A DNA stretch of 24,000 nucleotides from Bradyrhizobium sp. CCGE-LA001 (GCF_000296215.2 NZ_CP013949.1:7298248-7322247); one strand, 5' to 3'; positions 9,301 to 24,000 are shown, counted from the first letter of the stretch. Notes: a model not told the origin generated them from the letters alone. Numbers and translations: made by a program.

Positions 9301-9664
9301 CTTCAACCTGCCCGCCGGCCACGATATTCCCGGCTTGCCAATTATACCCCGCGAACAGGTCGACCATCGAACCGGTCACGTCGCCCGAAAGAATGCTCGC
9401 AGTCGTCCCGACCAAGGTCGAGTTCGACGTCACCACGCCGGCGTTGGTCGAGAGTGAGCTGTTGGCGAAACTGCCAGTCGAGGAGTCCGTCGCATGTCCG
9501 GCGCCCGCACCGAAATAAGCGCCGATATAGGGCCCGGCCCAGCTGTTGACCCAGGCCGGTCGGGGTGGCGCCTTCACAGTCAGGTCGGCGGCTAGAGCTC
9601 CGGCAGAAACCATGATCGAGGCGCCAGCCAATGAAGCGCCCGTCAGTGATGTCAGCTTTTTCAC
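6362..9664 (-). CDS. Outer-membrane protein made of four tandem Omp25/Omp31/RopB-like (OmpA-like, 8-strand) beta-barrel modules behind one signal peptide
   Basis: One uninterrupted ORF; the track gives 6362..9877. I place the start at the in-frame GTG at 9664, preceded by GGGGGGTTGGG. This gives MKKLTSLTGASLAGASIMVSAGALA-AD, a normal signal peptide, whereas the 71 residues upstream are non-protein-like. Four units each begin W-A-G-P-Y-[IL]-G-A-Y-F and each end AD[FL]H..KIG.VY.F. Confidence 0.8.
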   Translation of the reverse strand: MKKLTSLTGASLAGASIMVSAGALAADLTVKAPPRPAWVNSWAGPYIGAYFGAGAGHATDSSTGSFANSSLSTNAGVVTSNSTLVGTTASILSGDVTGSMVDLFAGYNWQAGNIVAGGQVEGTVFSDVALKPFGNQTFNSVSTNVLLGVVTSTTAGSATVQSNQQLRSRVGLIGRLGFLARPDLLLYGLGGLELGHFTFADSADPFGGGNNKWVAGYTVGAGGELKLTGNWSLRGEYRYLNFGFNRSAATNSTASSATGATTFVSTSSESSSTRTNADFHLAKIGLVYQFGDSGPLSAMAAIPPAGRGASFASAWGDSWAGPYIGAYFGAGAGRARQTSTRIDDEGSVSTVGGTSAFTQSGFGNLAGDMTGSMVDLFAGYNWRTGNVVAGGQIEGTLFSDVTTKTVGNEAYSSVSTNNGVVTSTSSGTNRIEDRQQLRSNVGVIGRAGYLVTPSVLLYGLGGLALGHLTYPDGYPDSEVRVGGKNGKWVAGYVAGAGGEVKLTDSWSLRGEYRYMHFGYDGNEPTGSSQTSVSGGGTTTSTNSTVNGRHIDADFHVGKIGLVYQFGASGTRSAMAALPSPAWNDGWAGPYIGAYFGAGAGRAAETIATNNTSTSTITIVGTTTSTSTQSTNGRPVGDVTGSMVDLFAGYNWRAGSVVAGGQIEGSVFSDVTFKTIGPHTFTSVDTSNGAVTSTSSGSQTAGNRTQQQLRSNVGVIGRAGYLVTPNVLLYGLGGLALGHFTYADGDFSSGGANGKWVAGYTLGAGGEVKLTGNWSLRGEYRYTHYGFGRNEGSNFASSTQSTGSSSTSLSTDSTTRQINADFHTGKIGMVYRFGEGGPRSAMAALPGAPSDHWAGPYLGAYFAAGAGRARQILASTADSAQQNFNGAVQTTDFVGNTTTRGSAAGDTTGSMVDLFAGYNWRAGNIVAGGQIEGTLFSDVAFKMNGEQTSNTRQVLNGVVTTSVNPTAMQASEQLRSNVGVFGRAGYLVTPKLMLYGVGGLALGHFTFPDPGGVNGPNGKWVAGYTAGAGGEFKLTQRWSLRGEYRYLHFDIDRAETRTSSSTQIQGATTILRANADSTSRKTSADLHIAKIGAVYAFCYCD
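6365..9541 (-). repeat. Four in-frame direct repeats of ~750 nt (coding repeats, one beta-barrel module each)
   Basis: Module coordinates, from the conserved Trp codon to the VY.FG end: 8792-9541, 7967-8710, 7166-7909 and 6365-7111. The Trp codons fall at residues 113, 390, 657 and 923 of the track ORF (spacing 277, 267 and 266 aa). Blocks conserved in all four are TGSMVDLFAGYNW..GN/S.VAGGQ.EG..FSDV, QQLRS.VG..GR.G.L, L.YG.GGL.LGH.T., KWVAGY..GAGGE.KLT..WSLRGEYRY and AD.H..KIG.VY. At the DNA level, TATTC[GA]CCGCGCAGCGACCA recurs near 6537, 7327, 8130 and 8955. Confidence 0.85.
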
Positions 9665-9673
9665 CCCAACCCC

Positions 9674-9691
9674 CCAATTCCAATTCCAATT
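9674..9691. repeat. (CCAATT)x3 tandem hexamer; (AATTGG)x3 on the coding strand of the OMP gene
   Basis: CCAATTCCAATTCCAATT was read directly. It sits 10-27 nt upstream of the proposed GTG start (9664), directly abutting the G-rich RBS. It is the source of the WNWNWNW peptide in the over-extended ORF. Confidence 0.7.
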
Positions 9692-9892
9692 CCAGAACAA
9701 GAAAATGTTACCGGAAGAGCAGATGAAAAGCCGTTGCGCGCATACAACAAGTTCGACGTTTCGGAGTCGAAGCCGACCTAAGTTATTGATACTTATATGA
9801 AATGCGTCAGGTTGTCGCACTTGGAAGATGCAACTTAATCCTGCACAGCGCGACAACATTGTCGCGCGAGGCCGCATCAGCTCGGCGCCTCA

Positions 9893-9931
9893 TCCCAAAA
9901 CAAAAATGGCCCGCATCAAGCGGGCCATTTT
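9893..9931 (-). terminator. Rho-independent terminator downstream of the tRNA-Met 3' end
   Basis: AAAATGGCCCGC (9903-9914) and GCGGGCCATTTT (9920-9931) form a perfect 12-bp stem with loop ATCAA. On the minus strand the stem is followed by TTTTTGTTTT. It lies 27 nt after the tRNA CCA end (9958). Confidence 0.75.
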
Positions 9932-9957
9932 CGTATCGGATCCGGTCAATCCGAATT

Positions 9958-10002
9958 TGGTTGCGGGGATAGGATTTGAACCTATGACCTTCAGGTTATG
10001 AG
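9958..10002 (-). pseudogene. 3' half only (anticodon loop to CCA) of an initiator-type tRNA-Met(CAT) gene; probable att junction of the integrated element
   Basis: The minus strand reads CTCATAA-CCTGA-AGGTC-ATAGG-TTCAAAT-CCTAT-CCCCGCA-A-CCA. This gives an anticodon loop with CAT, the 3' anticodon stem, a variable loop, a complete T-arm, the 3' acceptor strand, the discriminator and CCA. It closely parallels the remembered E. coli tRNA-fMet 3' half (GGGCTCATAACCCGAAGGTCGTCGGTTCAAATCCGGCCCCCGCAACCA). The 5' partner strands (TCAGG and [CT]GCGGGG) are absent from the 80 nt upstream, which is AT-rich unrelated sequence, so the gene is not intact. Confidence 0.75.
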
Positions 10003-10152
10003 TATGAATTTCACAGTTTTCTGGAGTTATCCCAAGACCTCTTGCTTTACCTAAGCCACTTAAAATACTAGTGAAATCTAGCATCGCGATTTCCCGAGAT
10101 ATCCTGCCATTCCCGTTACGGTGGCGACTCGGTGGCGATTCTGGAGGTCAAT

Positions 10153-11391
10153 GTGCCGGTACTGAAGCTGACGCGGAGAACGATCGACGCAATCGAACCC
10201 GTCGACAAGCAGACCATCTTTTACGACAGCGAATTGACCGGTTTTTGCCTCAAGGTCCTTCCCTCCGGCGTCCAGAGGTGGTGCGTCGAATACCGTAGCG
10301 GCGCCGGCGGGCGGAGCGTCGGCAAGACGCGGATGGTCCTTGGGTCCGCCTCGAGCATGACGCCCGACCAGGCGCGCGCTAGGGCCAAATCAACCCTCGC
10401 TGCTGTGGCTCTCGGACAGGATCCCGCCCGCAAGCGCTCGACCGAACGTGCCATGCCAACCTTTGCCGAGTTTGGCGAGCGCTATCTCAGGGAGGAGGCC
10501 GCGGCAAAACTAAAGCCGCGAACGGTCGTCAACTACCGTATCTACCTGCGTAAGCACGCCGCCCCCCTCCTGGGCACCCGCAAGCTCGATGCGCTCGATA
10601 GTGCCGCCATCTCGAAGATGCACCGGAAGATCGGCAAGGAGACGCCGATGACCGCGAATCGGGTCGTCGAGTTCATCGGATCCGTCTTCCGGTACGCTGC
10701 CGTCTGCGGCCTCGTTACCAAGGGGCACAATCCCGCGAGTCATGTCCAAGCATTCCGCGAGCAGCGCCGCGAACGGTTCCTGAGCTCACCGGAACTAGGC
10801 CGCCTGGGAGACGCCATTCGCGAAGCGGAAACGGTGGGCATTCCGTGGGCTGTGGACAAAGACCAGCCGAACGCGAAGCACATCCCGAAAAACGGTCGCA
10901 CGAAAATCGGGCCTCACGTAGCGGCTGCATTGCGCCTCTTGATCCTCACTGGCGCCCGACTGCGCGAAATCCTCGAGCTCAAGTGGGAGTATGTTGACCT
11001 CCAGCGCGGCCTGCTCCTGCTCCCTGACAGCAAGACGGGACAGAAGGCCATCATTCTCAATGCACCGGCTCTCGACATCCTTGGCAAGATTCCCAACGTC
11101 GATTGCTACGTGATCGCCAGCGATATCAAGGGCCAGCCTCGGCACGACCTGAATAAGCCTTGGAAGCTCGTGAGCACGCGATCAGGCCTCGAAGGCGTAA
11201 GAATCCATGACCTGAGACATACCCACGCCAGCTATGGCGCAGGCGCAGGCTTTGGGCTGCCCATTATCGGGAAGTTGCTTGGCCATTCGCAGCCCGCGAC
11301 CACCGCCCGGTATGCGCATCTGGACAATGATCCGTTGCGGCGAGCATCCAACCAAATCGCAAAGGCACTAGCGGAAGCCATGGGCGACTGA
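10153..11391 (+). CDS. int: Tyrosine recombinase / phage-type integrase with N-terminal DUF4102-type arm-binding domain
   Basis: The track ORF is 10132..11391. I prefer the in-frame GTG at 10153, 5 nt after GGAGG (10143-10147). The N-terminus (V)PVLKLTRRTIDAIEPVDKQTIFYDSELTGFCLKVLPSGVQRWCVEYR is the typical arm-binding domain of tRNA-targeting island integrases. The catalytic signature is LILTGARLREILELKW (Arg), HDLRHTHAS (His-x-x-Arg) and LLGHSQPATTARYAHL (His...Tyr nucleophile). Confidence 0.9.
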   Translation: MPVLKLTRRTIDAIEPVDKQTIFYDSELTGFCLKVLPSGVQRWCVEYRSGAGGRSVGKTRMVLGSASSMTPDQARARAKSTLAAVALGQDPARKRSTERAMPTFAEFGERYLREEAAAKLKPRTVVNYRIYLRKHAAPLLGTRKLDALDSAAISKMHRKIGKETPMTANRVVEFIGSVFRYAAVCGLVTKGHNPASHVQAFREQRRERFLSSPELGRLGDAIREAETVGIPWAVDKDQPNAKHIPKNGRTKIGPHVAAALRLLILTGARLREILELKWEYVDLQRGLLLLPDSKTGQKAIILNAPALDILGKIPNVDCYVIASDIKGQPRHDLNKPWKLVSTRSGLEGVRIHDLRHTHASYGAGAGFGLPIIGKLLGHSQPATTARYAHLDNDPLRRASNQIAKALAEAMGD

Positions 11392-13732: not shown

Positions 13733-16105
13733 TCAGCGATTGCGTGGACGGAACGTAAAGCGGGCCGCTTCGGCGAAAGCCTGAGCGAAGCGCTCGCTGC
13801 CGGTCTTGCGGTCCACAAAGATTTCATCCTCTCTTTGAAGCGCATTCGCGGAAATATCCGGGCCGGTGTCAGTCGCGCGCGTCTCCGACGGGTCGCGGCC
13901 GGCGGCGGCGACGTATACGGCGCGCAATGCGGTGAGGACGGCGGCTCGCATGCCTTCGTCGTTGAGGCGTTCACGTAACCGGATCTGGGCATCATCTCGA
14001 CCTTCCGCGACGGGTTCTTTGTTAGGAAGGAGACAAGCCACGAGCGGATGGAGGCCATCGGTCGGCAGGTTCTGTCCAGCGATTTCGGCGACCAGCGCCG
14101 CGGTTTCCGTGGTGAGCCCGACCTCGCAGGCGAGAGCAAAAAGCAAATACGGATAGAGCGGTGTCTTGCCGACGCCGCCCGCCTCCAAGTCCGCAATGCC
14201 CGTGGGCCCACGCATCACGCGGATTAGGCGGTAGGTATTGACCAGGCGCTTCAGCCCGCGCGGTGACTTTCCTGCAAGCGGCGCCATGGCCGCCAGCGCT
14301 CGCCGCTCGAATTTTGACATCGTGGCTCGTCGTTGCGCCGCGGTTTGAAATAGCGTGGGATCGGGCGCCACGTCGATCGGCACCATGTTGTCCTGGCCCT
14401 GCTGCCCGCCTTTGTCACCGGCGGCCTGCCCCGGAGAGTCTGCGGGCTCTTCCTCCTGTTTATCGATGCCGCTGACGAATGTCTCGACCATTCCGGGATT
14501 GCTGATGGGCTGCATCCAGATCGGCAGCTGGAAAATCTTTTCAAGGTAATCGGCGACAGTTGCGCCAGCGGGCTGTACCGGTTGGTCGGCATCACCCGGT
14601 TGCCCGGGCACCGCAAGCTGGCCGCTGTAGACCTTGCCGACAGCGCGATGCAGCCAGCGGGCATCGACGGCAACGACTACGACGAAAAGGTCAAAGGCAA
14701 GGAGAAGGTGGATTGCCTGCAGGACCTGCACAACGTGCTGCTCGGAGCAGCGGTCAAGATCGTCGATATAGACGATGATGCGTCGCACCTCGGGAACGTG
14801 GGTGAGATCGGCTACTTTGTCTGCTGCGGGCTTGGAGTTGCCTTCGGCGGGTTTGACCTCCGCCGGCGCTGCCGCACGCTTCTCGTGCATGATCTGCTCG
14901 AGGGTTACGAAGCACCGCCTGACCGTCGCGAGAAGCCCAAGCTTCTTGCGCACCTCGGCAAGCTCCGGCGAGTAGGTAATGAAGTAGCGCAGCAGACCTT
15001 CGCGAGATCGCCCCTCGGCCGCGAGGCTGTAAGAGGCCGCGAACTCCGTTGCCTTCTTCTGCTCGGCGATCATGGCGTCGAGCTTCTCGCGTTCCTTCTT
15101 GACCAACTCAGAGGCTTCGCGCCGCTCATTGTTTAGCTCGGCAGCTCGCTTCTCCTTGCGGGCGAGGAATTCGGCGGCTAGCGAGAGGATCGGCGTCGCG
15201 GTGCCGATCGCGATCGCAGCCGTGCCGATCAGCGTTCCGAGCACAGCAACGGAAGGAAAGGCACTAACGATGTAGGACCAAATCTCCGGGACACGTCCCC
15301 AACCGAGATACCAGACGGCCCCGCCGACTCCGATGGTAAGAACGGCGAGGGCTGCAGTGAGCCCATAGATGATGCCCCGGCTGAGACTGCGGCGCAGCAG
15401 CACGAAGAGCAGCCCGGCGCGGCTCGGCAGATCGAACAACCCCGACAGGAGCGACGCAAGCTTTTCCGGATCGCGCTCGCCGGTCGGTACACCGCACGCC
15501 TGCAACAACTCGTCGAGACGCTTCTTGTGGGCTTCGGCCTTTTCGACTTCGCGCCTCTTGTTCGGGTCCTTTTTGTCTTTATCGCTGAGTTCCTTCGGGG
15601 TTGCTTTTGTGATGAGTTCTTTGGCCATCTCGCCTGCCACGGTCGCTGCCACTGGCTCGTGCTCGAGGCCTACGAGCTTTGTCTCGGCCGCCTGTATAGC
15701 CTCGCGCTGAAGTTCGATAGCGCCTTCTACCAGCGGCGAAGCTTCGGCGTCCCTGCGCAGTCGCTTGGCGATCTCTGTGATCAGGCCGGTCCTAAGCTTA
15801 CCGTCCGGTGCGCGGCCGTCGATGGCATCGGCAAGCTGATCGAACAGCTCTGCTGTAAGGGAAGCCCAGAGGTTTTCGGCATCGGCATGACTCCAAGCAT
15901 CGAAGTTAATCTGCACCACCTTCGGCGCCGCCGGCACACTCGGTTCCGGCGACGTGCGCGCGGCAATTTGATCCTTTAGCAGGCGGATAAGCGTACTCTT
16001 TCCCGAACCCCAAGGACCGAACACTCCAACCGCGACCGGCGGCTTGAGGTCATCGAGCAGTAACAGATCAGCAAGCGCCGCCGCATCGCTCCCGGTGTTG
16101 AGCAA
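13733..16105 (-). CDS. KAP-family P-loop NTPase with transmembrane helices inserted inside the NTPase domain
   Basis: The Walker A motif is VGVFGPWGSGKSTL. The Walker B motif is RRIIVYIDDLDRCSEQHVVQVLQAIHLLL, about 410 residues later; DDLDRC is the KAP family signature. In between lie charged coiled-coil-like stretches and hydrophobic segments (GLLFVLLRRSLSRGIIYGLTAALAVLTIGVGGAVWYLGW and IWSYIVSAFPSVAVLGTLIGTAAIAIGTATPILSLAAEFL). The called start is TTG at 16105, with GAGG 5 nt upstream. Protein-like KAP N-terminal sequence continues upstream in the same frame without a start codon (see findings). Confidence 0.85.
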   Translation of the reverse strand: MLNTGSDAAALADLLLLDDLKPPVAVGVFGPWGSGKSTLIRLLKDQIAARTSPEPSVPAAPKVVQINFDAWSHADAENLWASLTAELFDQLADAIDGRAPDGKLRTGLITEIAKRLRRDAEASPLVEGAIELQREAIQAAETKLVGLEHEPVAATVAGEMAKELITKATPKELSDKDKKDPNKRREVEKAEAHKKRLDELLQACGVPTGERDPEKLASLLSGLFDLPSRAGLLFVLLRRSLSRGIIYGLTAALAVLTIGVGGAVWYLGWGRVPEIWSYIVSAFPSVAVLGTLIGTAAIAIGTATPILSLAAEFLARKEKRAAELNNERREASELVKKEREKLDAMIAEQKKATEFAASYSLAAEGRSREGLLRYFITYSPELAEVRKKLGLLATVRRCFVTLEQIMHEKRAAAPAEVKPAEGNSKPAADKVADLTHVPEVRRIIVYIDDLDRCSEQHVVQVLQAIHLLLAFDLFVVVVAVDARWLHRAVGKVYSGQLAVPGQPGDADQPVQPAGATVADYLEKIFQLPIWMQPISNPGMVETFVSGIDKQEEEPADSPGQAAGDKGGQQGQDNMVPIDVAPDPTLFQTAAQRRATMSKFERRALAAMAPLAGKSPRGLKRLVNTYRLIRVMRGPTGIADLEAGGVGKTPLYPYLLFALACEVGLTTETAALVAEIAGQNLPTDGLHPLVACLLPNKEPVAEGRDDAQIRLRERLNDEGMRAAVLTALRAVYVAAAGRDPSETRATDTGPDISANALQREDEIFVDRKTGSERFAQAFAEAARFTFRPRNR

Positions 16106-17112
16106 GTCGGCCTCGGTCCGATCATTCGCAAACGCATGGGTTTCGCCAGCGGCGCGGGGGGCAGGCTTACCTGCCGCATCTCGTCTAAGATCGGGCCCCA
16201 GGACTCGAGCTTGTCGCCCAGGTTTACGTAATTCTTAATTTCGTCCTGAACAATCCGCGTCAATGTATCGCGCCAGCTGATAAAGTTCAGTCCAGCGGCA
16301 TCGCTGGCTACACGCCCTATCTCTTCAAGGACGAGTCCGGCGAGGAAGTGCCGCACGCCGCCTTCAAGGTACGAGACATTTGTCTTTTCGCGCAGCAAGG
16401 ACATACGAAGAAGAATGGCTACGAGTTCCGGACCAACGATCACGTTGCTCGCACTCGCATCAATTGTCGTTTCGGACGGGAAATCGAACTGCCCAAGCTG
16501 AGTGGGCGTTGCACTGGAATATTCGCGCACTATCCTCGGCAGGAATACGCTCGGCCTACTCGCCATACCTTGCCCAATCTGCCGGTGCAGCAGCGCATCG
16601 AAAACCTGACGTGGCCGCAAAATCCGATCGTGGTCGAGCCGGGTCGCAGCAATCCGAAGCAGCCGTCCAAGGTTTGCCGAAACATAGGGCACGGCGCTCT
16701 CAGGCCAGGTGAACGCGAGAATGTCCTGTAGAGCAGCGCCACGGTCTCGTGCCGGCGCCAGCGGATCCGCCAGAGGAGCGATACCGTTCTGACCGATCGT
16801 GCCGGTCCCCTGCAGCGTATCTGGTTCTTCACCAGCAGCCTGCTGCTCTCTACTGCCCGCTTGTTCGTCGAAATCGGATTCGCTCTCGTTCTTCGCCTTT
16901 CCTGGGCGTCGATCGACCCTCCGACGCAATTCTGAAAGTTGACTTTCCAATTCGATCTGCCGCGACGTCTTGGACCATCCAGGCTCCTCGGACGGCGACG
17001 CGCTTGATGAGACGGATGTCACATACGGCTTATTTCGGGCAGCCTCGAGCGCTGCGATCTCCCGTTCAAGGTTCGCTATCTGGTCATGCAGGTTACTTGC
17101 GAGTTCTTGCAT
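15976..17112 (-). CDS. Hypothetical protein: N-terminal coiled coil, acidic low-complexity linker, ~230-aa helical domain; partner of, or fused to, the KAP NTPase
   Basis: The track ORF is 15976..17178. I prefer the ATG at 17112 (MQELASNLHDQIANLEREIAALEAARNK). Codon usage is consistent down to about 16160. The last ~60 codons (PMRLRMIGPRPTCSTPGAMRRRLL...) overlap the KAP gene out of frame and look non-protein-like, so the true 3' end is uncertain. Confidence 0.55.
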   Translation of the reverse strand: MQELASNLHDQIANLEREIAALEAARNKPYVTSVSSSASPSEEPGWSKTSRQIELESQLSELRRRVDRRPGKAKNESESDFDEQAGSREQQAAGEEPDTLQGTGTIGQNGIAPLADPLAPARDRGAALQDILAFTWPESAVPYVSANLGRLLRIAATRLDHDRILRPRQVFDALLHRQIGQGMASRPSVFLPRIVREYSSATPTQLGQFDFPSETTIDASASNVIVGPELVAILLRMSLLREKTNVSYLEGGVRHFLAGLVLEEIGRVASDAAGLNFISWRDTLTRIVQDEIKNYVNLGDKLESWGPILDEMRQVSLPPAPLAKPMRLRMIGPRPTCSTPGAMRRRLLICYCSMTSSRRSRLECSVLGVRERVRLSAC

Positions 17113-17558
17113 TGCATCGCCCTCGTGCCGGCATTCAAGGTCGAGGCAGGTGAAACCGCGCCCGCGGCGACGCCTCAACGGTCGGATGCATGTAATCTAA
17201 TTCACAATCGTGACCTGTGCTACACACCGGCGTCGCGAAGAGCCGGTGGATTGCGCAACGGCGCGCAGGCGAAGGGCTGCGGCGGCACAACGCCCGCCGA
17301 CCCGCGATCATTGAGGCGTTCAGAAACTCAGGCGGAAAGCCTGAATGTGCGGAAAATGAGTCCGCAATTGGTGCGTGATTGGCCTCGCAAAGAATCTGCT
17401 TTCTGGCGATTAGCAGACTGCGGATTGAGTTCAGGACCTGCGCTTGTTAGCCCGAACCGAAGCGGTTTGAGGGAGGATGCGGGTCCCTCCGAGGACGCCA
17501 CCCCCTACGGCACAAACGCGCCCCAGAAAATCACCAGCCGCAGAGGGCGGAAGCTGGG

Positions 17559-17674: not shown

Positions 17675-18445
17675 TCAGCGCTGCGCCCAGGACAGCAGCC
17701 AGCCCGACGACAGCGTCGTGAGCCAGAGGATGACGACTAGCGTCAGCCAGGCGAATGGTACGACGAAAGCGAGAAGTGGTTCAGGCGCCTTTGCGACGGC
17801 TACCTTGCCGCTATTGCGACCCGAGGTGTAACTTGTCTGTGCCGGCTTCGTTTTCAGCCATCGGGCCAGCGCGCTGACGCCAAGGTTGATGAGCAGTGCC
17901 GCAACCAGGGCATGCGCAGCGCTGGCGGCGATCTCGTACTGGTCTCCCTTCAAGTCAAGGCTCCGCAATAGCAGACTGATTGAATCGATCGCATGGTTCT
18001 CGCGCTGGCCGGACTGGAGCTTCTCAGCAAGCAGAAACGACAGCGACAACAGGATCACCGTGACGGAAAACGCTGACACGATCGATGTCATCATCACTCG
18101 GTGCGCCAAGGATTGCAGCGGCGATTTGTCATACCCGCAGCTCACGAACATTCGAGTCAGAACAAACAGTCCGAAGACGGCCAAGAGAGCGGCGACGGCG
18201 GCAAGAAAGAAATATTCTGGATATTCTCCGAGTAGCTTGCCGTATCCGCCGGGGTGCACGCGCATCAGATGCAGCAGGAACGGCAGCGACAGCCAGATCA
18301 GCGCGGCTAGTCCGCGTTCGATGCGGCGATTACCGAGCATCGCGCGACCAGGAAAGCGCGTCAGGGTTAGCATGCTGGACGGCTCGGCCTCCGCCTCGAT
18401 CGCCTCGCTGGCAAGCACGGCTGCGGACATACTGCTGGTCGGCAT
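17675..18445 (-). CDS. Polytopic inner-membrane protein (256 aa, about 5 TM segments), unknown function
   Basis: ATG at 18445, with GGGAG 7 nt upstream overlapping the stop of the preceding gene. Hydrophobic segments are LAALIWLSLPFLLHLM, YFFLAAVAALLAVFGLFVLTRMFV, VMMTSIVSAFSVTVILLSLSFLLA, AHALVAALLINLGVSALA and LLAFVVPFAWLTLVVILWLTTL. Confidence 0.6.
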   Translation of the reverse strand: MPTSSMSAAVLASEAIEAEAEPSSMLTLTRFPGRAMLGNRRIERGLAALIWLSLPFLLHLMRVHPGGYGKLLGEYPEYFFLAAVAALLAVFGLFVLTRMFVSCGYDKSPLQSLAHRVMMTSIVSAFSVTVILLSLSFLLAEKLQSGQRENHAIDSISLLLRSLDLKGDQYEIAASAAHALVAALLINLGVSALARWLKTKPAQTSYTSGRNSGKVAVAKAPEPLLAFVVPFAWLTLVVILWLTTLSSGWLLSWAQR

Positions 18446-18458
18446 CGATAGCTCCCGT

Positions 18459-19388
18459 TTAGCGGCCCGAGGAAGTCTTCCACGTGACGGTCCGTACTAA
18501 GGGCGTGCGATCGCCATTCTTGCTCGCGCGCCACAGTCTGATCATGGTCCGATAGGGTTGCCAAGTCCTGAACGACCAGGAATCCTGGGTCGGAACACTG
18601 AAGCCGAAGCAAGCCGGTGCCGCGCTGTCACCTGCCGAAACGATAGCGAATTCAGTGGTATAGGAGCCGCGAGTCTCCGCGTCCTTCTTCTGACGCCTAC
18701 GCTCGGCGTCAGCGCCGAACACGGTCCGCAGCACCTCCATGTCGTCGGGCAACCTCTCGAAGCCGTAAGTCTTCCAGCGCTGTCCGCGGGTAACAAGATC
18801 GCTGTTACTTCCGACGCAGTCGGTGCCGCCGTCCTTCAGATCGAGATGCAGACGATCGCCTATGTTCGTTCCCAGCGGGTTGCGCGAAATGTCATCGGCG
18901 TGATTCTGGGCATATTCGCGCATGCTGACCCAGCGGCTGTTGAGCCAACGACCACCACCAAACTGCAGTAACGCCTTGCCGCCCGAGCACTCCGTTGCAA
19001 TGCCCGGCCGCCAGAGTTTGACCTTGTCTGCCTCGATCCGGCTCCCGATATCCACCCCGGGCTCCTCAATCGTTTCGGTGCGCACACTCCAGACTTCTTC
19101 CCGGCCCGCCAGGACCCTGCCGCCGATCATGAACAAGCGCGCTTCGGGGTGATATGTCAGGGCTACGCCGTTGACGCGATAATAGCGGCGGCCGTCCCCG
19201 AGGCTGCCAGCTTCGCCCGGCGCGGCAGCAATGTGGGCCGGATAAAGCAGGAACAGGCCGCGCGCAGCGCCGAGTCCGGTACAGACGGCCTGGTCGTCGT
19301 TCCAATTGGGGACCTGTGCAGCCGCCGGAGCAAGGGTCCCGAGCCACGCCACGAACATCGGTATCGGCAATAGATGAACAAAATTCAT
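18459..19388 (-). CDS. Secreted/periplasmic protein (~309 aa) of unknown function
   Basis: The track ORF starts at GTG 19418. The ATG at 19388 gives a canonical signal peptide, MNFVHLLPIPMFVAWLGTLAPAAA-QV. The rest is soluble-looking with several Cys residues. The gene is 13 nt from the next one. Confidence 0.6.
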   Translation of the reverse strand: MNFVHLLPIPMFVAWLGTLAPAAAQVPNWNDDQAVCTGLGAARGLFLLYPAHIAAAPGEAGSLGDGRRYYRVNGVALTYHPEARLFMIGGRVLAGREEVWSVRTETIEEPGVDIGSRIEADKVKLWRPGIATECSGGKALLQFGGGRWLNSRWVSMREYAQNHADDISRNPLGTNIGDRLHLDLKDGGTDCVGSNSDLVTRGQRWKTYGFERLPDDMEVLRTVFGADAERRRQKKDAETRGSYTTEFAIVSAGDSAAPACFGFSVPTQDSWSFRTWQPYRTMIRLWRASKNGDRTPLVRTVTWKTSSGR

Positions 19389-19484: not shown

Positions 19485-22265
19485 TCACTGCTTTCCCGCC
19501 CTCTTCTGCTTCGCCACGCGCTGTTTCACCGCCTTCTCGACCGCAGCGATGAAACTGCCGACGCCGCTGTCAGTGGCAGTCGGAGCGATCGTGTCGATGA
19601 CGTGCTCGCCGAGCGCGCGGTAGGCCTCGAACTGGGTCTCCCCGAAAAACTGGTCTGTCGTTGGCTCATGCGGAAACTTCTCGTGCATGAGCGCGTAGCT
19701 GCGCACGGACAGGGGGGCGCTATCGTCGCGGCACGGCTTCATGTAGAGCAGTTTGCCGGTGCTGCGCTCAGGCAGGTGATAGGTAATGGTGGCGACGGCG
19801 CAAGGCGAGGAGGCATCGGTCAGCCTGGCGGCGATGTCGAACGACTCGAACTGCACGGTGACGCCGAGGTCGATCTCCGCCCGCCGCAGCGCGTTGCCGA
19901 GGTCCTCGAAAGTCATCTTGCAGTCCTCACCTCCGTCGCTGACGACGATGAGCCGGCACCGCCGGCGTAACATTTCGTAGATGCCCAGATTGTCGAAGTG
20001 GCCGCCGTCCGACAAGTAGACATAGTGTCGATCCGCGGTGGTGATCCCGAGCGCTTCGGAGATTAGAGGGATTGCGGAGAACAGCGGCCCCGAACTCTTG
20101 TGGCTCTTGTGTCCTTTCGGCCCCGGATTTCCGTACCACGCACCGAGACGAACGTTGAACAGCGTCATCAGGATGCTGTAGGCGGGCGACGAACTGTAGC
20201 CCATATTCGGGCTGACGGCGGCGCCGGAAACCGTCATCGCACTCCCGAGCGTGATGCCGCCACCATAGTCCCCAGTATTGCGGAAATAGCCGGCCGGCAG
20301 GCCCCCCGATTGCCCCATCGATGGCAGATCGCCGGTGCCGATCGCGAGCGGCGTTGCCGTGAACGATACCGCCTTGCGCTCCTGCCAGGCGAGTTGCGAG
20401 CTGCCGACGACGTTCAGCGCCATGTTTACTACGAGCAAAGGCGGGCGCTGGCCCGGTTTGTTTGCCGGCGCCGGCTCCCTCACCCTTGTCCCCGGCCAGA
20501 TCGTTGCAAGGCCGAGATCGTCGTTGCGGTCGAAGTCGGTCAGTTCGTTGGCCTCGCGCGGATGATGCGAGGCGCCGAGGAATGTTCGGATCAGGCGATT
20601 GCGATAGACTCCGTGCATCGAGAAGCGATTGATGTCGACAAAATACGACGTTGCAAGGGCGATCGTCATAGCTGCGGCGGCTACCGCCCAGGTCAGTCCA
20701 GTGTCGGTGTGGGCAGGAAGCAGTGCCGTGCCGTGGATATGCCAGTCGAGCACGACCGACGTCAGCACGATCAGACTGACCGTGAACACCATCGTCGCCA
20801 CAGCCATCACCAGATCGCGCGGCAGCTCCATCCACGACCTGACGTTTTCCTTGATCGTCGCTGTTGTCGATTTTGCCCAGCCGAGCAGCGCCGTTGTTGC
20901 GCCGGCGAGGCTGCCCACGCCGGCGAAGCCCGCCAACTGCAGCCTCGTTGGATGGCTCATCAAATCGAAGACGATTAGCGACCCGAGCAGCACTAGACCA
21001 AACAGAAGGAGCCAGGCTGTTGCCGCCAGTAGATGATGCCCGGCCGCGCGCGCCAACCACTCGCGCTCGCCGTCGCTCCAGTCTGTCATGTGCGTCAGCG
21101 CCACATAGATGACTTCGCCGAGGAACAGGGTGAGCATGACAACCGGCGGTCCTGCAATGATGAAAGTATGCCGCGGCGTCAGCGGTGCCGGCAGGTCGTG
21201 CAACCGGTCACCGCCATAAATCGCAAGACCAACCAATGCCGCCCCCACCGCCCAGCTCACCACGATAGCGCCAGCGACAGTTGCAAGTTTCCGCGGCGCG
21301 ATCAGAGACGCGTCGCTGGGCGGGCGTGCGAAACTCGAAAAATAGAGCGCGACAAGGCAGGCGAGTAGGCCGGTAACGGCGCTGACGCTGGCAAAAAAGA
21401 AGGTGATGCTGATCGAGAGGGGAGAATTTTGATATCCGGCGATGTTGTCAGGCGGAAAGACGAAGCCGACGTCCGTGATCGTGATGTCCGGCGGAAGGAC
21501 GAAGCCGATGGTAGCGACCGTGATCAGCGTCGCGCCGATCAGCATCGGAATGATCTCGAATACATAGAAATTGAACAGGCCGGAATCAGCCACGTCTCCG
21601 TGGGGCCCCGGCCGCTGCCCGATAGAATCCACGAACGACATACCCATGAAAGCGACCGCGATAATCGCGAGCATGGCACGCCATTCCGGTGGAGCGTTCC
21701 AAGCGCCGACCGCAATCAGCTTTACCGCTGCGACGACCAGCACGACGACTGGCAGCAGCACTAGCCAGTTAAGCAGCAGATTGCGAACATAGATCACGCC
21801 CATCGTTAACCGGTCAGCGGAGAACAGCCCGGTCCGCGGCGTCAGGTAGTTGCTGTAGTTGCGCAGGTGCCGTAGTGGTGAATTCGTGCGCATTGGTTCA
21901 TTGCCGCTGAGCTGCCCCTGCGCATCGTCGAATCCATGCCGCTGGATCCAAGCGACGAGGAAACTGCCAACATAGCCGCCGCCGGACACAGTCGACAGAT
22001 AGTCGAATTTTTCCAAAATTTGCCGCTTCGCCAGTCCCTGCACAATGCCGAGCGCGAACGCAGCGCTGCGGATTCCGCCACCCGAAAGGCACAGCGCCGC
22101 AAGCGGCGTCGCAAGATCCTCGACCAGCCTGTGATAGCGATCGATATTGGCTGCCGTATTGGCCTGAGAATTCTGCTCTGGACCGATGACACCCGAGCGG
22201 CGATAGCGGACATACTGCAGCTCCTCGAGCAACACTTCGCTGGTGTCCTTGATATCGTCGATCAT
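19485..22265 (-). CDS. Patatin-like (cPLA2/PNPLA-type) phospholipase with a large polytopic membrane insertion between the catalytic Ser and Asp
   Basis: The oxyanion motif is LCLSGGGIRSAAFALG (G62-G64). The nucleophile elbow is YLSTVSGGGYVG (Ser94), 30 residues later. The catalytic Asp motif is YLSDGGHFDNLGIYE (Asp753; codon 20009..20007). Between about residues 150 and 560 lie roughly ten hydrophobic 20-25-residue segments, for example LLLNWLVLLPVVVLVVAAVKLIAVG, FEIIPMLIGATLITVATIGFVL, ITFFFASVSAVTGLLACLVALYF, LLAATAWLLLFGLVLLGSLIVF and LVMAVATMVFTVSLIVLTSVVL. Confidence 0.85.
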   Translation of the reverse strand: MIDDIKDTSEVLLEELQYVRYRRSGVIGPEQNSQANTAANIDRYHRLVEDLATPLAALCLSGGGIRSAAFALGIVQGLAKRQILEKFDYLSTVSGGGYVGSFLVAWIQRHGFDDAQGQLSGNEPMRTNSPLRHLRNYSNYLTPRTGLFSADRLTMGVIYVRNLLLNWLVLLPVVVLVVAAVKLIAVGAWNAPPEWRAMLAIIAVAFMGMSFVDSIGQRPGPHGDVADSGLFNFYVFEIIPMLIGATLITVATIGFVLPPDITITDVGFVFPPDNIAGYQNSPLSISITFFFASVSAVTGLLACLVALYFSSFARPPSDASLIAPRKLATVAGAIVVSWAVGAALVGLAIYGGDRLHDLPAPLTPRHTFIIAGPPVVMLTLFLGEVIYVALTHMTDWSDGEREWLARAAGHHLLAATAWLLLFGLVLLGSLIVFDLMSHPTRLQLAGFAGVGSLAGATTALLGWAKSTTATIKENVRSWMELPRDLVMAVATMVFTVSLIVLTSVVLDWHIHGTALLPAHTDTGLTWAVAAAAMTIALATSYFVDINRFSMHGVYRNRLIRTFLGASHHPREANELTDFDRNDDLGLATIWPGTRVREPAPANKPGQRPPLLVVNMALNVVGSSQLAWQERKAVSFTATPLAIGTGDLPSMGQSGGLPAGYFRNTGDYGGGITLGSAMTVSGAAVSPNMGYSSSPAYSILMTLFNVRLGAWYGNPGPKGHKSHKSSGPLFSAIPLISEALGITTADRHYVYLSDGGHFDNLGIYEMLRRRCRLIVVSDGGEDCKMTFEDLGNALRRAEIDLGVTVQFESFDIAARLTDASSPCAVATITYHLPERSTGKLLYMKPCRDDSAPLSVRSYALMHEKFPHEPTTDQFFGETQFEAYRALGEHVIDTIAPTATDSGVGSFIAAVEKAVKQRVAKQKRAGKQ

Positions 22266-22285: not shown

Positions 22286-24000
22286 TCAGTTCGGTGGAGC
22301 CGGAGCAACCGGCGACGCCGGCAGGCGCTGCAGTGTGACCTGCGCGGTGCCGCGATTGTTAGAGTAGTAGCAGCCGTAGGGCCCCAGGAATGGCACGATC
22401 TGGATCGCATCGTTCACGTAGAGGAAAAGCTCGCCCGATTCCGGCGCGATGAAATCGGCAACGAACTCGCGCGCGAGGTTCTGCGCGTCCCACTCCTGCT
22501 TCGCGTCGTCCATTTTTGACGCATCGATCTTGTCAGTCGGGATCAGCCGGCAGTCCTTGTTGCCGTTGTTCGCGACCGTTTCGGGGCTAGGTGCGTAGGC
22601 AAACCTGGACGGCAGCTCCTGCATCAGCGCCGGCGCGGCCTTGCGCGGCAGTTCGTCGGCCGGTCGCTTGTTATTGGCAACCAACGGCCATTCGGAGGTG
22701 CCCCACTTGCCGACACGGGCGATCGGTTGGAACCAGTCCGCGTGATACCAGCGCCGGCTAGCGAGGCCCAGGCCGTGGGAGGTGAAAAGCGACGTCGTGA
22801 AGCCGTTCGTGCCCGACATGGTCGTGCGGTCGAACCATGGCTCCACGACTTTCATCGATAGGCGGTACTGGCGGCCTTTCTCGATCCAAAGCCCGCTACC
22901 CCAGCACATCGCGCTCGTTTCGAACAGTTTGCCGGCTTGCTTCGGCGTTTCGTCGACTACGAACTCGCCCGCGGTCACGCACATCGGGGTGCTGCGTCCG
23001 GCGTACCAGTCGAACAATGAGCGGTTGCCAGCGACGAATACGGAGCCGAAAAGAGCGGTGAGCAGCACCCCCGGAAAGACCCAGGTCGATACGAGCATCG
23101 CCAGCCCGTTCGCGAGATGGCAGTTGCGCATCTCGCGCGCGAAGCTGCGTCTGCCGGCATGCTCCCGCGCCGCCTCGCAGGTTTCGCGCTCTTTGCCTGC
23201 GACAATGCGCTCCGGGTGATACCAAGCAAGTCGCGCGCGCTCGCGGATCCTGTCACGCAGCGACGTCGACCATTGATAGGCAAAAAAGATGAAGGTGGCG
23301 AGCAAGAGCGTGAGCAACGGATAAGTGCGTGCTGTCTCGAGCCACGCGGCGGCTGCCGAAGGCAGGAAAGCCTGCAACAGATCGAAGGGCACCGCGAGAA
23401 CGCGAACGGACCGATCGTTACCCTCCTCGAGCTGTTCAAAGACCCCCCCAAGTCCCGCCAGAACGGCGAGGCCGCGCAGTACGGCCACAAGTTTCGGCGC
23501 GAGAACCGGCCAGGCCAGGGCCACCGCGGCGAGCGCGAGCAGCCAGAAATAGGAAACGCGCCGCCACCACACCGTATCGAGAGTCCGTTCGACGATCGTC
23601 TCGCTGGGCGGCGGCAACTGGTCGATCGCGGCCTCGCCGGCCGCAGCATTGTCGCGCCGCGCTTGCGTCGCATTGGCCGCCGGCTGCCAGCGGACCCGCG
23701 CGCGCTTCTCCGGTGGCAAGATCAATTCCGCCGTTGCGCCGGTCGGTCCCGGGAGCCAGACCAGCGACTTCGCCGGCAGCGTCACCGGCGCATAGTTGTC
23801 GCAGCCCTTGAGCATGCGCTGCACCACGCTGTGATGCAGCACCGGCGGCCCACCATCTTTCAAGTCGCTTGCGATGCCGCGCGGACTGTAGCGATAGAAC
23901 ACAGCGGCGCCCGCGCGCGAGTCGTGCACCGGACCGATCGCCGACTGATAGGCGCGGAAATAATCGATGCGCCCGTCCTGGAAGCGCAGCTGGCCCTCGA
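22286..24000 (-). CDS. 5'-truncated gene: membrane protein (4-5 TM) with C-terminal soluble domain ending in a LecA/PA-IL-like motif
   Basis: The track starts it at GTG 23929, but the same frame stays open to the window edge (...EGQLRFQDGRIDYFRAYQSAIGPVHDSRAG...), so the N-terminus lies outside. TM segments are YFWLLALAAVALAWPVLAPKLV, YPLLTLLLATFIFFAYQW and LAMLVSTWVFPGVLLTALFGSVFVAG. The C-terminal end is GELFLYVNDAIQIVPFLGPYGCYYSNNRGTAQVTL. The stop is 20 nt before the patatin ATG. Confidence 0.65.
   Translation of the reverse strand, partial: EGQLRFQDGRIDYFRAYQSAIGPVHDSRAGAAVFYRYSPRGIASDLKDGGPPVLHHSVVQRMLKGCDNYAPVTLPAKSLVWLPGPTGATAELILPPEKRARVRWQPAANATQARRDNAAAGEAAIDQLPPPSETIVERTLDTVWWRRVSYFWLLALAAVALAWPVLAPKLVAVLRGLAVLAGLGGVFEQLEEGNDRSVRVLAVPFDLLQAFLPSAAAAWLETARTYPLLTLLLATFIFFAYQWSTSLRDRIRERARLAWYHPERIVAGKERETCEAAREHAGRRSFAREMRNCHLANGLAMLVSTWVFPGVLLTALFGSVFVAGNRSLFDWYAGRSTPMCVTAGEFVVDETPKQAGKLFETSAMCWGSGLWIEKGRQYRLSMKVVEPWFDRTTMSGTNGFTTSLFTSHGLGLASRRWYHADWFQPIARVGKWGTSEWPLVANNKRPADELPRKAAPALMQELPSRFAYAPSPETVANNGNKDCRLIPTDKIDASKMDDAKQEWDAQNLAREFVADFIAPESGELFLYVNDAIQIVPFLGPYGCYYSNNRGTAQVTLQRLPASPVAPAPPN

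What the first reader, a model, noticed from the sequence alone, without database searches (positions are those of the whole stretch)
19485..22265. Patatin fold split by ~10 transmembrane helices between the nucleophile Ser and the catalytic Asp
Seen in sequence:
- GGGIRS (62-67) and VSGGG (Ser94) lie in the first 100 residues.
- The DGG(H)FDNLG Asp motif is at residue 753.
- Residues ~150-560 are a series of about ten hydrophobic helices, followed by ~190 soluble residues before the Asp.

Established knowledge: in canonical patatin/cPLA2 folds the Ser-Asp dyad is formed by one compact alpha/beta domain, with at most a cap insertion.

Inference: the active site must assemble from two cytoplasmic (or periplasmic) halves tethered by an integral membrane domain. 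This could gate substrate access or couple activity to membrane state. The membrane domain itself resembles no transporter I can recognise by eye.
Basis: partly seen in the sequence, partly recalled or inferred. Interest (0 to 1): 0.6.

Follow-up and report, generated by a model that had tools for sequence, protein, structure and literature searches.

The report
Membrane-split cPLA2-like lipase gene
This Bradyrhizobium gene encodes a patatin/cPLA2-type lipid-cleaving enzyme whose catalytic domain is interrupted by ten membrane-spanning helices, a real but unstudied design shared by thousands of bacterial proteins, here followed by two conserved envelope partner genes on a mobile island.

Summary
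The ORF lies on the minus strand (19485-22265, 926 aa). Ten predicted helices (150-542) lie between Ser and Asp.

An AlphaFold2 model (pLDDT 83.8, pTM 0.84) best matches human cPLA2 alpha and delta over more than 400 columns. The membrane block matches no known fold or family.

Loop charges and the signal-less 149-residue N-terminus place both catalytic lobes in the cytoplasm.

The proposed split Pfam hit fails. Only the N-terminal half matches Patatin, and the Asp-bearing half is linked to the fold by predicted structure alone.

The family is very large, with 10,549 representatives at E <= 1e-30, patchily distributed. I found no paper on it. This scan has already flagged the same architecture at least seven times on other genomes.

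New here:
- The closest subclade carries a conserved three-gene module: the lipase, an exported four-cysteine protein and a small membrane protein.
- This copy sits on an integrase-bearing island beside a Tle1-like membrane lipase.
- Distant members sit beside gyrB or pheT, so the family as a whole shows no defence link.

Verdict: a new variant of a known kind, of moderate interest. The biological role is unknown.

The parts
19485..22265 (-). Whole gene: 926-aa membrane-split patatin/cPLA2-like lipase (P0001)
   Evidence: This is a single open frame. Met1 is conserved in at least 90% of 51 relatives. The gene is single-copy in its own genome.
22101..22265 (-). N-terminal extension, residues 1-55: two helices, poorly conserved
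   Evidence: Mean top-residue frequency is 0.35. The model places helices at 8-24 and 37-49.
21819..22100 (-). N-lobe of the catalytic domain, residues 56-149: strand, Gly-rich loop, helix, strand, nucleophile elbow, helix
   Evidence: Pfam Patatin PF01734 matches residues 58-153 at 37.2 bits, above the 27.7-bit cut-off, covering profile positions 1-95 of 191. Conservation is 0.71. hhalign against canonical patatins gives E 5e-5.
22068..22085 (-). Oxyanion-hole/phosphate-binding motif S-G-G-G-I-R (residues 61-66)
   Evidence: S61, G62, G63, G64 and R66 are invariant in 51 sequences. Codons were checked.
21984..21986 (-). Codon of the predicted nucleophile Ser94, in the motif T-V-S-G-G
   Evidence: V93, S94, G95, G96 and G97 are invariant, and T92 is present in at least 90% of sequences. 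The codon was checked.
20631..21818 (-). Ten-helix membrane block, residues 150-545, inserted between the two lobes
   Evidence: Helices come from the model and hydropathy. Conservation is lower (0.41). The invariant residues (D151, R161, N162, N166, W167, E402, W403) and near-invariant ones (R218, R401) cluster at the cytoplasmic helix ends. No match was found in Pfam, PDB sequences or Foldseek.
19581..20630 (-). C-lobe of the catalytic domain, residues 546-895, carrying the Asp
   Evidence: Conservation is 0.61-0.67, with 110 positions at 90% or more. The model shows strands 610-618, 632-637, 641-644, 660-663, 709-712, 748-753 and 772-777. There is no sequence-level family match.
20007..20009 (-). 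Codon of the predicted catalytic Asp753, in L-S-D-G-G-H-F at the end of strand 748-753
   Evidence: L751, S752, D753, G754, G755, H756 and F757 are invariant. The codon was checked.
19485..19580 (-). Basic C-terminal helix, residues 896-926, plus the stop codon; not conserved
   Evidence: Conservation is 0.25. The model places a helix at 902-924.
18459..19388 (-). Partner gene 1: exported ~309-aa protein with a signal peptide and four invariant cysteines; fold unassigned
   Evidence: The gene lies 96 nt downstream of the lipase stop, or 66 nt if the alternative upstream GTG start at 19418 is used. Alignment A2 has C36, C134, C191 and C260 invariant. Homologues lie directly downstream of the lipase in L003, L034, L054, L055 and L057. 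The model has pLDDT 79, and Foldseek gives no significant hit.
17675..18445 (-). Partner gene 2: 256-aa membrane protein with 4-5 hydrophobic helices
   Evidence: The gap to partner gene 1 is 13 nt. Hydropathy is and alignment A5. An HMM built from A5 hits the same five loci in the same position, including the independent locus L034 (E 5e-32).
22286..24000 (-). 3' part of the upstream gene, 906 aa in all, which runs off the window. It has an N-terminal Tle1-like (DUF2235) lipase domain, then TM helices, then a C-terminal soluble domain.
   Evidence: PF09994 matches at E 2.4e-68 on L002:534-3254. A G-F-S-R-G motif and the TM segments were seen. The gap to the lipase start is 20 nt. Only the B. 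guangdongense island shares this gene. It was not seen next to the other relatives examined.

Best explanation
The gene encodes an intact, probably active Ser-Asp lipid acyl hydrolase of the patatin/cPLA2 superfamily that is built into the cytoplasmic membrane.

Architecture:
- The chain starts in the cytoplasm with the N-lobe, which carries the oxyanion/phosphate loop SGGGIR and the nucleophile Ser94.
- It crosses the membrane ten times.
- It returns to the cytoplasm with the C-lobe, which carries Asp753.
- The two lobes pack into one cPLA2-like domain that sits on the cytoplasmic face of the helix bundle.

Inferred mechanism:
- Conserved juxtamembrane segments form a collar between the bundle and the lipase. 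These segments are D151...R161-N-L-L-L-N-W167, R401-E-W403 and N546...R557.
- I infer that the bundle does the work that cPLA2 assigns to its C2 domain and cap. It holds the active site at the bilayer and offers inner-leaflet glycerophospholipid or lysophospholipid substrate laterally.
- The enzyme would therefore act as a phospholipase A or lysophospholipase on the cell's own membrane lipids.

This subclade:
- The lipase is co-transcribed with an exported disulfide-bonded protein and a small membrane protein. These probably bind the bundle from the periplasmic side or within the membrane and modulate the enzyme.

What is shown and what is inferred:
- Shown: the motifs, their invariance, the helices, the predicted fold match, the charge bias, the family size and the conserved three-gene module.
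- Inferred: catalysis, substrate, the role of the collar and regulation by the partners.
For: - The catalytic motifs are invariant in 51 relatives at 36-86% identity to the query, and the Asp motif in a second, independent set of 32 C-lobes.
- Pfam Patatin scores above its cut-off on the N-lobe.
- The AlphaFold2 model has pLDDT 83.8 and pTM 0.84, with a strand-nucleophile-helix element and a strand-Asp-Gly-Gly-helix element.
- The best Foldseek hits are cPLA2 alpha (1cjy_B: E 1.4e-3, prob 1.00, 433 columns) and cPLA2 delta 5iz5. CapV, patatin and PlpD align over only 60-115 columns.
- There are ten helices, an even number. Loop K+R averages 6.8 inside and 2.9 outside, and no signal peptide precedes the 149-residue N-terminal part.
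- Both lobes are much more conserved than the bundle (0.61-0.71 against 0.41). The bundle's invariant residues lie at the cytoplasmic helix ends.
- The architecture recurs in 10,549 representatives at E <= 1e-30, so it is not a fusion artefact.
- Distant members lie in core-genome neighbourhoods, beside gyrB or between pheT and rnhB. That fits a physiological lipid enzyme.
- The partner genes are conserved directly downstream in all five loci whose lipase is at least 42% identical, including the independent locus L034.
Against: - No activity, substrate or topology has been measured.
- The C-lobe has no sequence-level link to any patatin or cPLA2 model. Its assignment rests on a predicted structure and a marginal Foldseek E-value.
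- The nucleophile elbow reads T-x-S-x-G, not the canonical G-x-S-x-G.
- TM8 is only weakly hydrophobic (KD 1.42). If it does not insert, the two lobes would lie on opposite sides of the membrane.
- The patchy distribution (27 of 151 genomes in the family, 34 of 401 in the phylum) and the island location here fit an accessory or conflict role as well as a physiological one.
Confidence: 0.62

Rival explanations
1. It is a conflict or defence effector. The membrane-embedded lipase is kept inactive, then switched on through the bundle and the exported partner when the envelope is attacked by a phage, a competitor's toxin or a host. It then destroys or remodels the cell's own membrane, as the CBASS patatin effector CapV does after cyclic-nucleotide binding.
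For: - This copy lies on an island next to an integrase and a sub-threshold tRNA remnant, with lower G+C.
- The island also carries a KAP-family NTPase that hits the PADLOC QatA, PifA and PDC-S20 models, a Tle1-like membrane lipase and a TcB/TcC-like giant protein.
- The same island occurs in B. guangdongense.
- The distribution is patchy, and 32 plasmid records carry relatives.
- Patatin enzymes are established defence effectors (CapV and CapE structures appear).
Against: - The lipase and its three operon neighbours have no PADLOC hit.
- No cyclase or other sensor is adjacent.
- The neighbours seen in relatives' loci L003, L004, L055 and L057 are not defence genes.
- More distant members sit beside gyrB or between pheT and rnhB.
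- No phage record carries a relative.
- The island cargo other than the three-gene module is not conserved with the lipase.
Confidence: 0.2
2. It is a transport-coupled lipid-processing machine. The ten-helix bundle acts as a conduit or scramblase that brings lipid from the periplasmic leaflet, handed over by the exported partner, to the cytoplasmic active site. The purpose would be uptake or detoxification of exogenous or damaged lipids, analogous in logic to the LplT-Aas lysophospholipid salvage pair.
For: - The bundle is large, with ten helices, far more than an anchor needs.
- A periplasmic partner and a membrane partner are conserved in the subclade.
- Conserved polar residues sit at the bundle-lipase junction.
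Against: - The bundle matches no transporter fold or family.
- Its interior is poorly conserved (0.41), and no invariant charged residue lies mid-membrane.
- Related proteins of about 720-800 aa appear to have only about six helices.
- The top Foldseek hits of the partner (Cdc50/Lem3, GM2 activator) have probability of 0.04 or less and mean nothing.
Confidence: 0.12
3. It is not a functional split enzyme. It could be a gene-fusion or assembly artefact, a decayed gene, or a pseudo-enzyme in which the C-terminal DGG is a chance motif outside the fold.
For: The C-lobe has no sequence match to any patatin or cPLA2 model, and the Pfam hit covers only half of the Patatin profile.
Against: - The frame is intact and single.
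- The same N-lobe, bundle and C-lobe order recurs in thousands of proteins.
- The DGG block and about 110 other C-lobe positions are invariant or nearly so.
- The model is confident, and its fold match to cPLA2 spans more than 400 columns.
Confidence: 0.04

Closest known systems
Group IV cytosolic phospholipase A2 catalytic domain (human cPLA2 alpha, PDB 1CJY; cPLA2 delta, PDB 5IZ5/5IXC/5IZR)
   Same: - It gives the best structural match to the model: E 1.4e-3, prob 1.00, 433 aligned columns.
- It has a Ser-Asp dyad.
- It has a GGGxR loop whose Arg binds the lipid phosphate in cPLA2 (my knowledge), matching invariant R66 here.
- Its nucleophile context is x-S-G-[SG].
- A long insertion between Ser and Asp is already present in cPLA2, as the ~180-residue cap.
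   Different: - There is no sequence-level membership. Pfam PLA2_B PF01735 does not match anywhere in this genome, and the family profile touches 1cjy only at residues 52-117, with E 0.83.
- There is no C2 domain.
- The insertion is a ten-helix integral membrane block rather than a soluble cap.
- The protein is bacterial.
Canonical bacterial and plant patatin-like phospholipases (Pfam PF01734: patatin Pat17 1OXW/4PKB, ExoU, VipD, PlpD, CBASS CapV/CapE)
   Same: - The N-lobe passes the Pfam Patatin cut-off.
- It aligns with ExoU and VipD (E 0.004-0.03) and with this genome's own patatins (E 5e-5).
- The catalytic logic is the same: oxyanion GGGx[KR], a Ser elbow and D-G-G.
   Different: - Canonical members have the dyad within about 140-190 residues and match profile positions 1-190. 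All seven other patatin genes of this genome do so.
- Here 658 residues separate Ser and Asp, and the second half of the profile is not matched.
- Structural overlap with CapV, patatin and PlpD is limited to 60-115 columns.
- The elbow is T-x-S-x-G.
Other copies of this same uncharacterised family flagged earlier in this scan (notes e1-3899657, e1-3570501, e1-3895138, e1-4210742)
   Same: They show the same architecture and the same closest known structure (cPLA2). My own tests reproduce those readings.
   Different: - This copy belongs to a subclade with two conserved downstream partner genes.
- It sits on an integrase-bearing island next to a Tle1-like membrane lipase.
- Another copy was reported with a beta-propeller partner.

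Membership tests
Patatin-like phospholipase superfamily (PF01734) | Gly-rich oxyanion-hole motif G-G-G-x-[K/R] after the first strand | tested here: met
   S-G-G-G-I-R lies at residues 61-66. S61, G62, G63, G64 and R66 are invariant in 51 sequences. In the model the motif follows strand 56-61.
Patatin-like phospholipase superfamily (PF01734) | Nucleophile elbow G-x-S-x-G between a strand and a helix | tested here: inconclusive
   Ser94 is invariant and sits between strand 89-93 and helix 95-110. The motif reads T-V-S-G-G, with Thr92 (at least 90% conserved) in place of the first Gly.
Patatin-like phospholipase superfamily (PF01734) | Catalytic Asp in D-G-[A/G] at the end of a strand | tested here: met
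   D753-G-G is invariant in two alignments and lies at the end of predicted strand 748-753.
Patatin-like phospholipase superfamily (PF01734) | Match to the Pfam HMM above the gathering score, over the whole profile | tested here: inconclusive
   The score of 37.2 bits exceeds the 27.7-bit cut-off, but only profile positions 1-95 of 191 are matched. The C-lobe alone gives no hit even at E 10.
Patatin-like phospholipase superfamily (PF01734) | Ser and Asp brought together in one alpha/beta domain | tested here: inconclusive
   The model has pTM 0.84 and aligns to cPLA2 over more than 400 columns, which implies that both lobes take part. Coordinates are not returned, so the Ser-Asp distance was not measured.
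Patatin-like phospholipase superfamily (PF01734) | Lipid acyl-hydrolase activity | not testable with these tools
   This needs an enzyme assay with S94A and D753A controls.
cPLA2 / lysophospholipase catalytic domain (PF01735, PLA2_B) | Match to the PLA2_B HMM | tested here: not met
   PF01735 gives no match anywhere in the window's genome at E <= 10.
cPLA2 / lysophospholipase catalytic domain (PF01735, PLA2_B) | Structural similarity to the cPLA2 catalytic domain | tested here: met
   1cjy_B matches at E 1.4e-3, prob 1.00 and 433 columns. 5iz5_A matches at E 1e-2, prob 1.00 and 426 columns. TM-scores are low (0.23-0.34) because the bundle is unmatched.
cPLA2 / lysophospholipase catalytic domain (PF01735, PLA2_B) | N-terminal C2 domain for Ca2+-dependent membrane binding (group IVA) | tested here: not met
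   Pfam finds no C2 domain. Residues 1-55 form two poorly conserved helices.
CBASS-type patatin defence effectors (CapV/CapE) | Match to a defence-system model and an adjacent cyclase or sensor gene | tested here: not met
   The lipase has no PADLOC hit, nor do its three operon neighbours. No cyclase gene lies within the island. The only cyclase-domain gene in the window is at 2293-5412, outside the island.

The most novel reading that the evidence does not exclude
The lipase, the exported four-cysteine protein and the small membrane protein form a previously undescribed trans-membrane signalling lipase. The partners would sense a periplasmic or envelope event. The ten-helix bundle would transmit it across the membrane and open the cytoplasmic cPLA2-like active site. 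If so, the bundle is a new kind of membrane-embedded regulatory lid for a patatin-fold enzyme, possibly used in inter-microbial or phage conflict.
Probability: 0.15. Interest if true: 0.75.

Novelty: new variant of a known kind. Interest (0 to 1): 0.5.

Why it matters
Patatin/cPLA2 enzymes are studied as soluble or peripherally bound lipases that must be recruited to membranes by C2 domains, ubiquitin, cyclic nucleotides or amphipathic helices. This family solves the same problem by threading the catalytic domain through a ten-helix bundle, so the enzyme is permanently in the bilayer.

The family has more than ten thousand 50%-identity representatives and no characterised member that I could find. 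That makes it a large blind spot in bacterial membrane-lipid biology.

A structure and an assay would address three questions:
- How an always-membrane-bound phospholipase is kept from destroying its own membrane.
- What the new helix bundle does.
- Whether the conserved exported partner regulates the enzyme.

The finding is not unique to this window. The scan has met the same family repeatedly.

Tried and rejected
1. A split Pfam Patatin hit. Only the N-half matches, and the C-lobe alone gives nothing at E 10. None of 32 C-lobes matches Patatin or any other relevant family; only four scattered single-member hits appear, best E 0.007.
2. NCBIfam and PADLOC on the lipase gave no hit.
3. PLA2_B (PF01735) on the whole genome gave no hit.
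4. Profile-profile comparison (hhalign) against this genome's seven canonical patatins. The N-lobe aligns (E 5e-5). The C-lobe and the bundle do not. This was a small and crude alignment, so it is a weak negative.
5. C-lobe profile against PDB sequences. The only hit is an insignificant 33-residue match to kinetoplastid mS56 around its DGG (E 0.19).
6. Bundle profile against PDB, Pfam and the 5.8-billion-protein database for stand-alone relatives. PDB and Pfam gave nothing significant. The database search gave two proteins outside the main full-length set: an unannotated 738-aa protein and a Patatin-annotated 369-aa protein. The bundle is therefore not a recruited, known membrane protein family. 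The word-based prefilter limits the sensitivity of this search.
7. Fold of the exported partner. The model is confident, but no Foldseek hit has probability above 0.09. I do not use the Cdc50/GM2-activator resemblance.
8. Conservation of the four-gene operon.
   - The Tle1-like gene is shared only with the near-identical B. guangdongense island. tblastn found it in none of the 22 more distant loci searched, and it is not among the genes listed beside the lipase in L055 and L057.
   - The two downstream genes are conserved only in the closest subclade.
   - The 64 neighbour ORFs taken from 16 of the more distant loci share no recurrent family apart from gyrB in three loci and trivial same-genus synteny.
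9. Phage records gave no relative.
10. Literature. Four full-text searches on patatin or cPLA2 combined with transmembrane, polytopic or bacterial-homologue terms found no paper on this architecture. The one defence paper I checked concerns canonical CBASS patatins.
12. I considered a direct-coupling analysis for inter-lobe contacts and dropped it. About 270 sequences and no coordinates to validate against would have made it uninterpretable.
Full report
**1. What is there**

The coordinates 19485-22265 hold one uninterrupted ORF of 926 codons on the minus strand. It is protein P0001.

- S-G-G-G-I-R at residues 61-66 (nt 22068-22085).
- T-V-S-G-G with Ser94 (nt 21984-21986).
- D753-G-G-H-F-D-N-L-G (Asp codon at nt 20007-20009).

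The motif residues are invariant in an alignment of P0001 with 50 relatives at 36-86% identity to it (A1). These are S61, G62, G63, G64, R66, V93, S94, G95, G96, G97 and L751 through F757. The Asp block is again invariant in a second set of 32 C-terminal halves taken from genomes (A3). These are not chance motifs.

**2. The hydrophobic region**

Kyte-Doolittle analysis gives nine clear peaks and one weak peak between residues 150 and 545. The AlphaFold2 model built on A1 has mean pLDDT 83.8 and pTM 0.84. It shows ten long helices: 150-189, 193-217, 230-256, 285-310, 324-353, 364-390, 397-437, 441-463, 480-510 and 523-542. About 207 soluble residues then precede Asp753.

TM8 (441-463) is the weak point. 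It is Gly/Ala-rich, its best 19-residue hydropathy is 1.42, and it has conserved G451 and G455. Its insertion is supported by the model and by the tight hairpin it forms with TM7.

**3. Are the two halves one domain, and on which side?**

Foldseek of the whole model against the PDB puts human cPLA2 alpha first (1cjy_B: E 1.4e-3, probability 1.00, 433 columns). cPLA2 delta follows (5iz5, 5ixc: 400-570 columns). Canonical patatin-fold structures (CapV, patatin, PlpD, ExoU, CapE) align over only 60-115 columns.

The N-lobe is about 100 residues and the helix bundle has no counterpart in cPLA2. A match of more than 400 columns must therefore include the C-lobe.

The local secondary structure fits the fold:
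- Strand 56-61, Gly loop, helix.
- Strand 89-93, Ser94, helix 95-110.
- Strand 748-753 ending in Asp753-Gly-Gly, then helix 760-767.

For topology, the first 149 residues have no signal peptide or preceding TM segment, and the helix count is even. Averaged over 51 sequences, the loops on the side of the termini carry 6.8 K+R and the opposite loops 2.9. Both lobes are therefore predicted to be cytoplasmic.

I could not measure the Ser-Asp distance, because the tool returns no coordinates.

**4. What fails**

- PF01734 matches only residues 58-153, covering profile positions 1-95 of 191. The score is 37.2 bits against a cut-off of 27.7.
- The seven other patatin genes of this genome match positions 1-190.
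- The C-lobe alone matches nothing in Pfam at E 10.
- None of 32 C-lobes matches Patatin or any other relevant family; only scattered single-member hits appear.
- A C-lobe profile finds nothing meaningful among PDB sequences.
- PLA2_B (PF01735) does not match anywhere in the genome.
- An hhalign comparison with the genome's canonical patatins aligns the N-lobe (E 5e-5) but not the C-lobe.

The Asp-bearing half is therefore tied to the fold by invariant residues and by predicted structure only.

**5. The helix bundle**

It is the least conserved part of the protein. Mean top-residue frequency is 0.41, against 0.61-0.71 for the lobes.

Its invariant or near-invariant residues lie at the cytoplasmic ends of helices:
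- D151.
- R161-N162-L-L-L-N166-W167 on the first half of the 40-residue helix 150-189.
- R218.
- R401-E402-W403 at the start of helix 397-437.
- N546, S549, H551, Y554, N556 and R557 on the helix that follows TM10.

I read these as a conserved collar between the bundle and the lipase. This is inference.

The bundle matches no known fold. Transporter hits in Foldseek have probability of 0.15 or less and rmsd of about 30 Å. It matches no Pfam family and no PDB sequence.

A profile of 16 bundles found only two proteins outside the main full-length set in the 5.8-billion-protein database. One is an unannotated 738-aa protein, slightly above the stated length window, and the other is a Patatin-annotated 369-aa protein. 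The bundle does not look like a recruited, free-standing membrane protein family, within the sensitivity of that search.

**6. How common it is**

- The word-indexed search returned 7,904 significant full-length relatives among the 8,000 candidates scored. All that carry a name are called "hypothetical" or "patatin-like phospholipase family protein".
- The exhaustive HMM search of 1.84 billion 50%-identity representatives gave 10,549 proteins at E <= 1e-30.
- The distribution is patchy. Matches occur in 27 of 151 genomes of the same family (19 of 62 genera) and in one of three other genomes of the genus. In the phylum sample the figure is 34 of 401 genomes.
- Relatives lie on 32 plasmid or chromid records of soil and rhizosphere bacteria and on no phage record.
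- Shorter relatives of about 720-800 aa appear to have about six helices, by crude hydropathy.
- The gene is single-copy in its own genome.

**7. Context in this window**

The gene is second in a tight minus-strand row. The gaps are 20 nt, 66-96 nt (depending on the start chosen for the second gene) and 13 nt.

Upstream gene:
- It is a 906-aa gene that runs off the window. It has an N-terminal Tle1-like (DUF2235, PF09994, E 2.4e-68) lipase domain with a G-F-S-R-G motif, then TM helices, then a soluble C-terminal domain.

Downstream genes:
- The first is a ~309-aa protein with a signal peptide and four invariant cysteines (A2).
- The second is a 256-aa protein with 4-5 hydrophobic helices.

Further out:
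- Beyond a ~500-nt gap lies a KAP-family NTPase. It is split here into 400-aa and 790-aa frames, whereas it is a single 1,190-aa protein in B. guangdongense.
- Next come HTH proteins and a tyrosine integrase at 10132-11391. The integrase sits beside a sub-threshold tRNA-like remnant, and G+C dips to 0.56-0.60.
- Diverging from the operon is a 2,497-aa TcB/TcC-like protein with SpvB, TcdB-mid and RHS domains.
- B. guangdongense carries the same island with an 85%-identical lipase.

**8. Which neighbours are really linked?**

- HMMs built from the two downstream proteins hit the ORFs directly after the lipase in L003, L054, L055 and L057. They also hit L034, which was not used to build them (E 1.6e-55 and 5.3e-32). 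These are exactly the loci whose lipase is at least 42% identical over its full length.
- None of the other loci searched with those HMMs, all with more distant lipases, has them.
- The Tle1-like gene, the KAP NTPase and the Tc-like gene occur only in the B. guangdongense island.
- In the more distant loci, 64 neighbour ORFs taken from 16 of them share no recurrent family. The exceptions are gyrB, next to the lipase in three genera, and the pheT/rnhB genes that flank it in one genus. Those are core-genome positions.
- The lipase and its three operon neighbours have no PADLOC hit.

So the conserved unit is a three-gene module limited to one subclade, and the family as a whole is not tied to defence islands. 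The exported partner gives a confident model (pLDDT 79, pTM 0.80) but no significant fold match.

**9. Most likely mechanism**

I commit to a constitutively membrane-integrated phospholipase A or lysophospholipase.
- The cPLA2-like domain sits on the cytoplasmic face.
- The lipid phosphate is bound by invariant Arg66, as by Arg200 in cPLA2 (my knowledge of 1CJY).
- Ser94 and Asp753 form the dyad.
- The bundle and its conserved collar replace the C2 domain and cap, by fixing the active site at the inner leaflet and feeding substrate laterally.
- In this subclade the exported disulfide-bonded protein and the small membrane protein probably bind the bundle and modulate activity.

Confidence is about 0.6 for the biochemical picture. 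It is much lower for any particular biological role. The rivals are a triggered conflict or defence effector (about 0.2), a transport-coupled lipid processor (about 0.12) and a non-functional or artefactual gene (about 0.04).

**10. Comparison and novelty**

Fold similarity and motif logic indicate that it works like cPLA2 or patatin. It is a member of the patatin superfamily by the Pfam N-half score and the three catalytic motifs, with a T-x-S-x-G elbow. It is not a member of Pfam PLA2_B.

Four full-text literature searches and one paper check found no description of this architecture.

Earlier notes of this scan describe the same family on at least seven other genomes and reach the same cPLA2 reading. 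My tests agree with them. What this window adds is the subclade-specific three-gene module, the island setting with a second membrane-bound lipase, and the contrast with the core-genome settings of distant members.

I rate it a new variant of a known kind, with interest 0.5.

Noticed in passing
window 22286-24000 (-), continuing to L002:534-3254: The gene just upstream of the lipase (20-nt gap) encodes a 906-aa protein. It has a Tle1-like/DUF2235 alpha/beta-hydrolase domain (PF09994, E 2.4e-68, G-F-S-R-G motif), then TM helices around residues 490-525 and 631-653, then a ~250-aa soluble C-terminal domain. The island therefore carries two different membrane-embedded lipase-type proteins in tandem. 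The pairing is seen only here and in B. guangdongense.
   Followed up: partly
window 13733-17178 (-): The KAP-family P-loop NTPase is one 1,190-aa protein in the B. guangdongense island (L054:14948-18520). Here it is split into overlapping 400-aa (15976-17178) and 790-aa (13733-16105) frames. This is probably a frameshift or a sequencing error. It hits the PADLOC QatA, PifA and PDC-S20 models (E 1e-15 to 1e-12).
   Followed up: partly
L002:3846-11339 (+) and L002:11579-16000 (+), just beyond the window's right end: Diverging from the lipase operon is a 2,497-aa TcB/TcC-like protein with SpvB, FG-GAP, TcdB middle and RHS-repeat domains. It is followed by a protein of more than 1,474 aa with no Pfam match. 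I annotated these only and did not analyse them further.
   Followed up: no
window 9893-11391: This looks like an island junction. A tyrosine integrase (10132-11391, +) lies next to a sub-threshold tRNA-like stretch (9968-10059, minus strand, 21.5 bits against a gathering score of 29). ARAGORN finds no complete tRNA. G+C falls from ~0.64 to ~0.56-0.60 over 10-13 kb.
   Followed up: partly
window 6362-9877 (-): A 1,171-aa protein has four stretches matching the OMP_b-brl model, along with OmpA_membrane and Opacity matches. It is a multi-barrel outer-membrane protein, lying outside the island.
   Followed up: no
window 2293-5412 (-): A 1,039-aa adenylate/guanylate cyclase with AAA_16 and TPR domains, a STAND-type signalling protein. 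It lies about 14 kb from the lipase and outside the island. A cyclase-TPR protein also lies near the lipase relative in L004, probably by coincidence.
   Followed up: no
L035, L037, L041 (gyrB); L058, L062 (pheT / rnhB): Distant members of the lipase family sit next to DNA gyrase B in three genera and between pheT and RNase HII in another. These are core-genome positions that contrast with the island position in this window.
   Followed up: partly
L058, L059, L062, L063 and phylum survey: Relatives of about 715-800 aa appear to have only about six hydrophobic helices between Ser and Asp. They share mainly TM1, the last helices and the C-lobe with the 10-TM form. The bundle therefore seems modular, with an even helix count.
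   Followed up: partly
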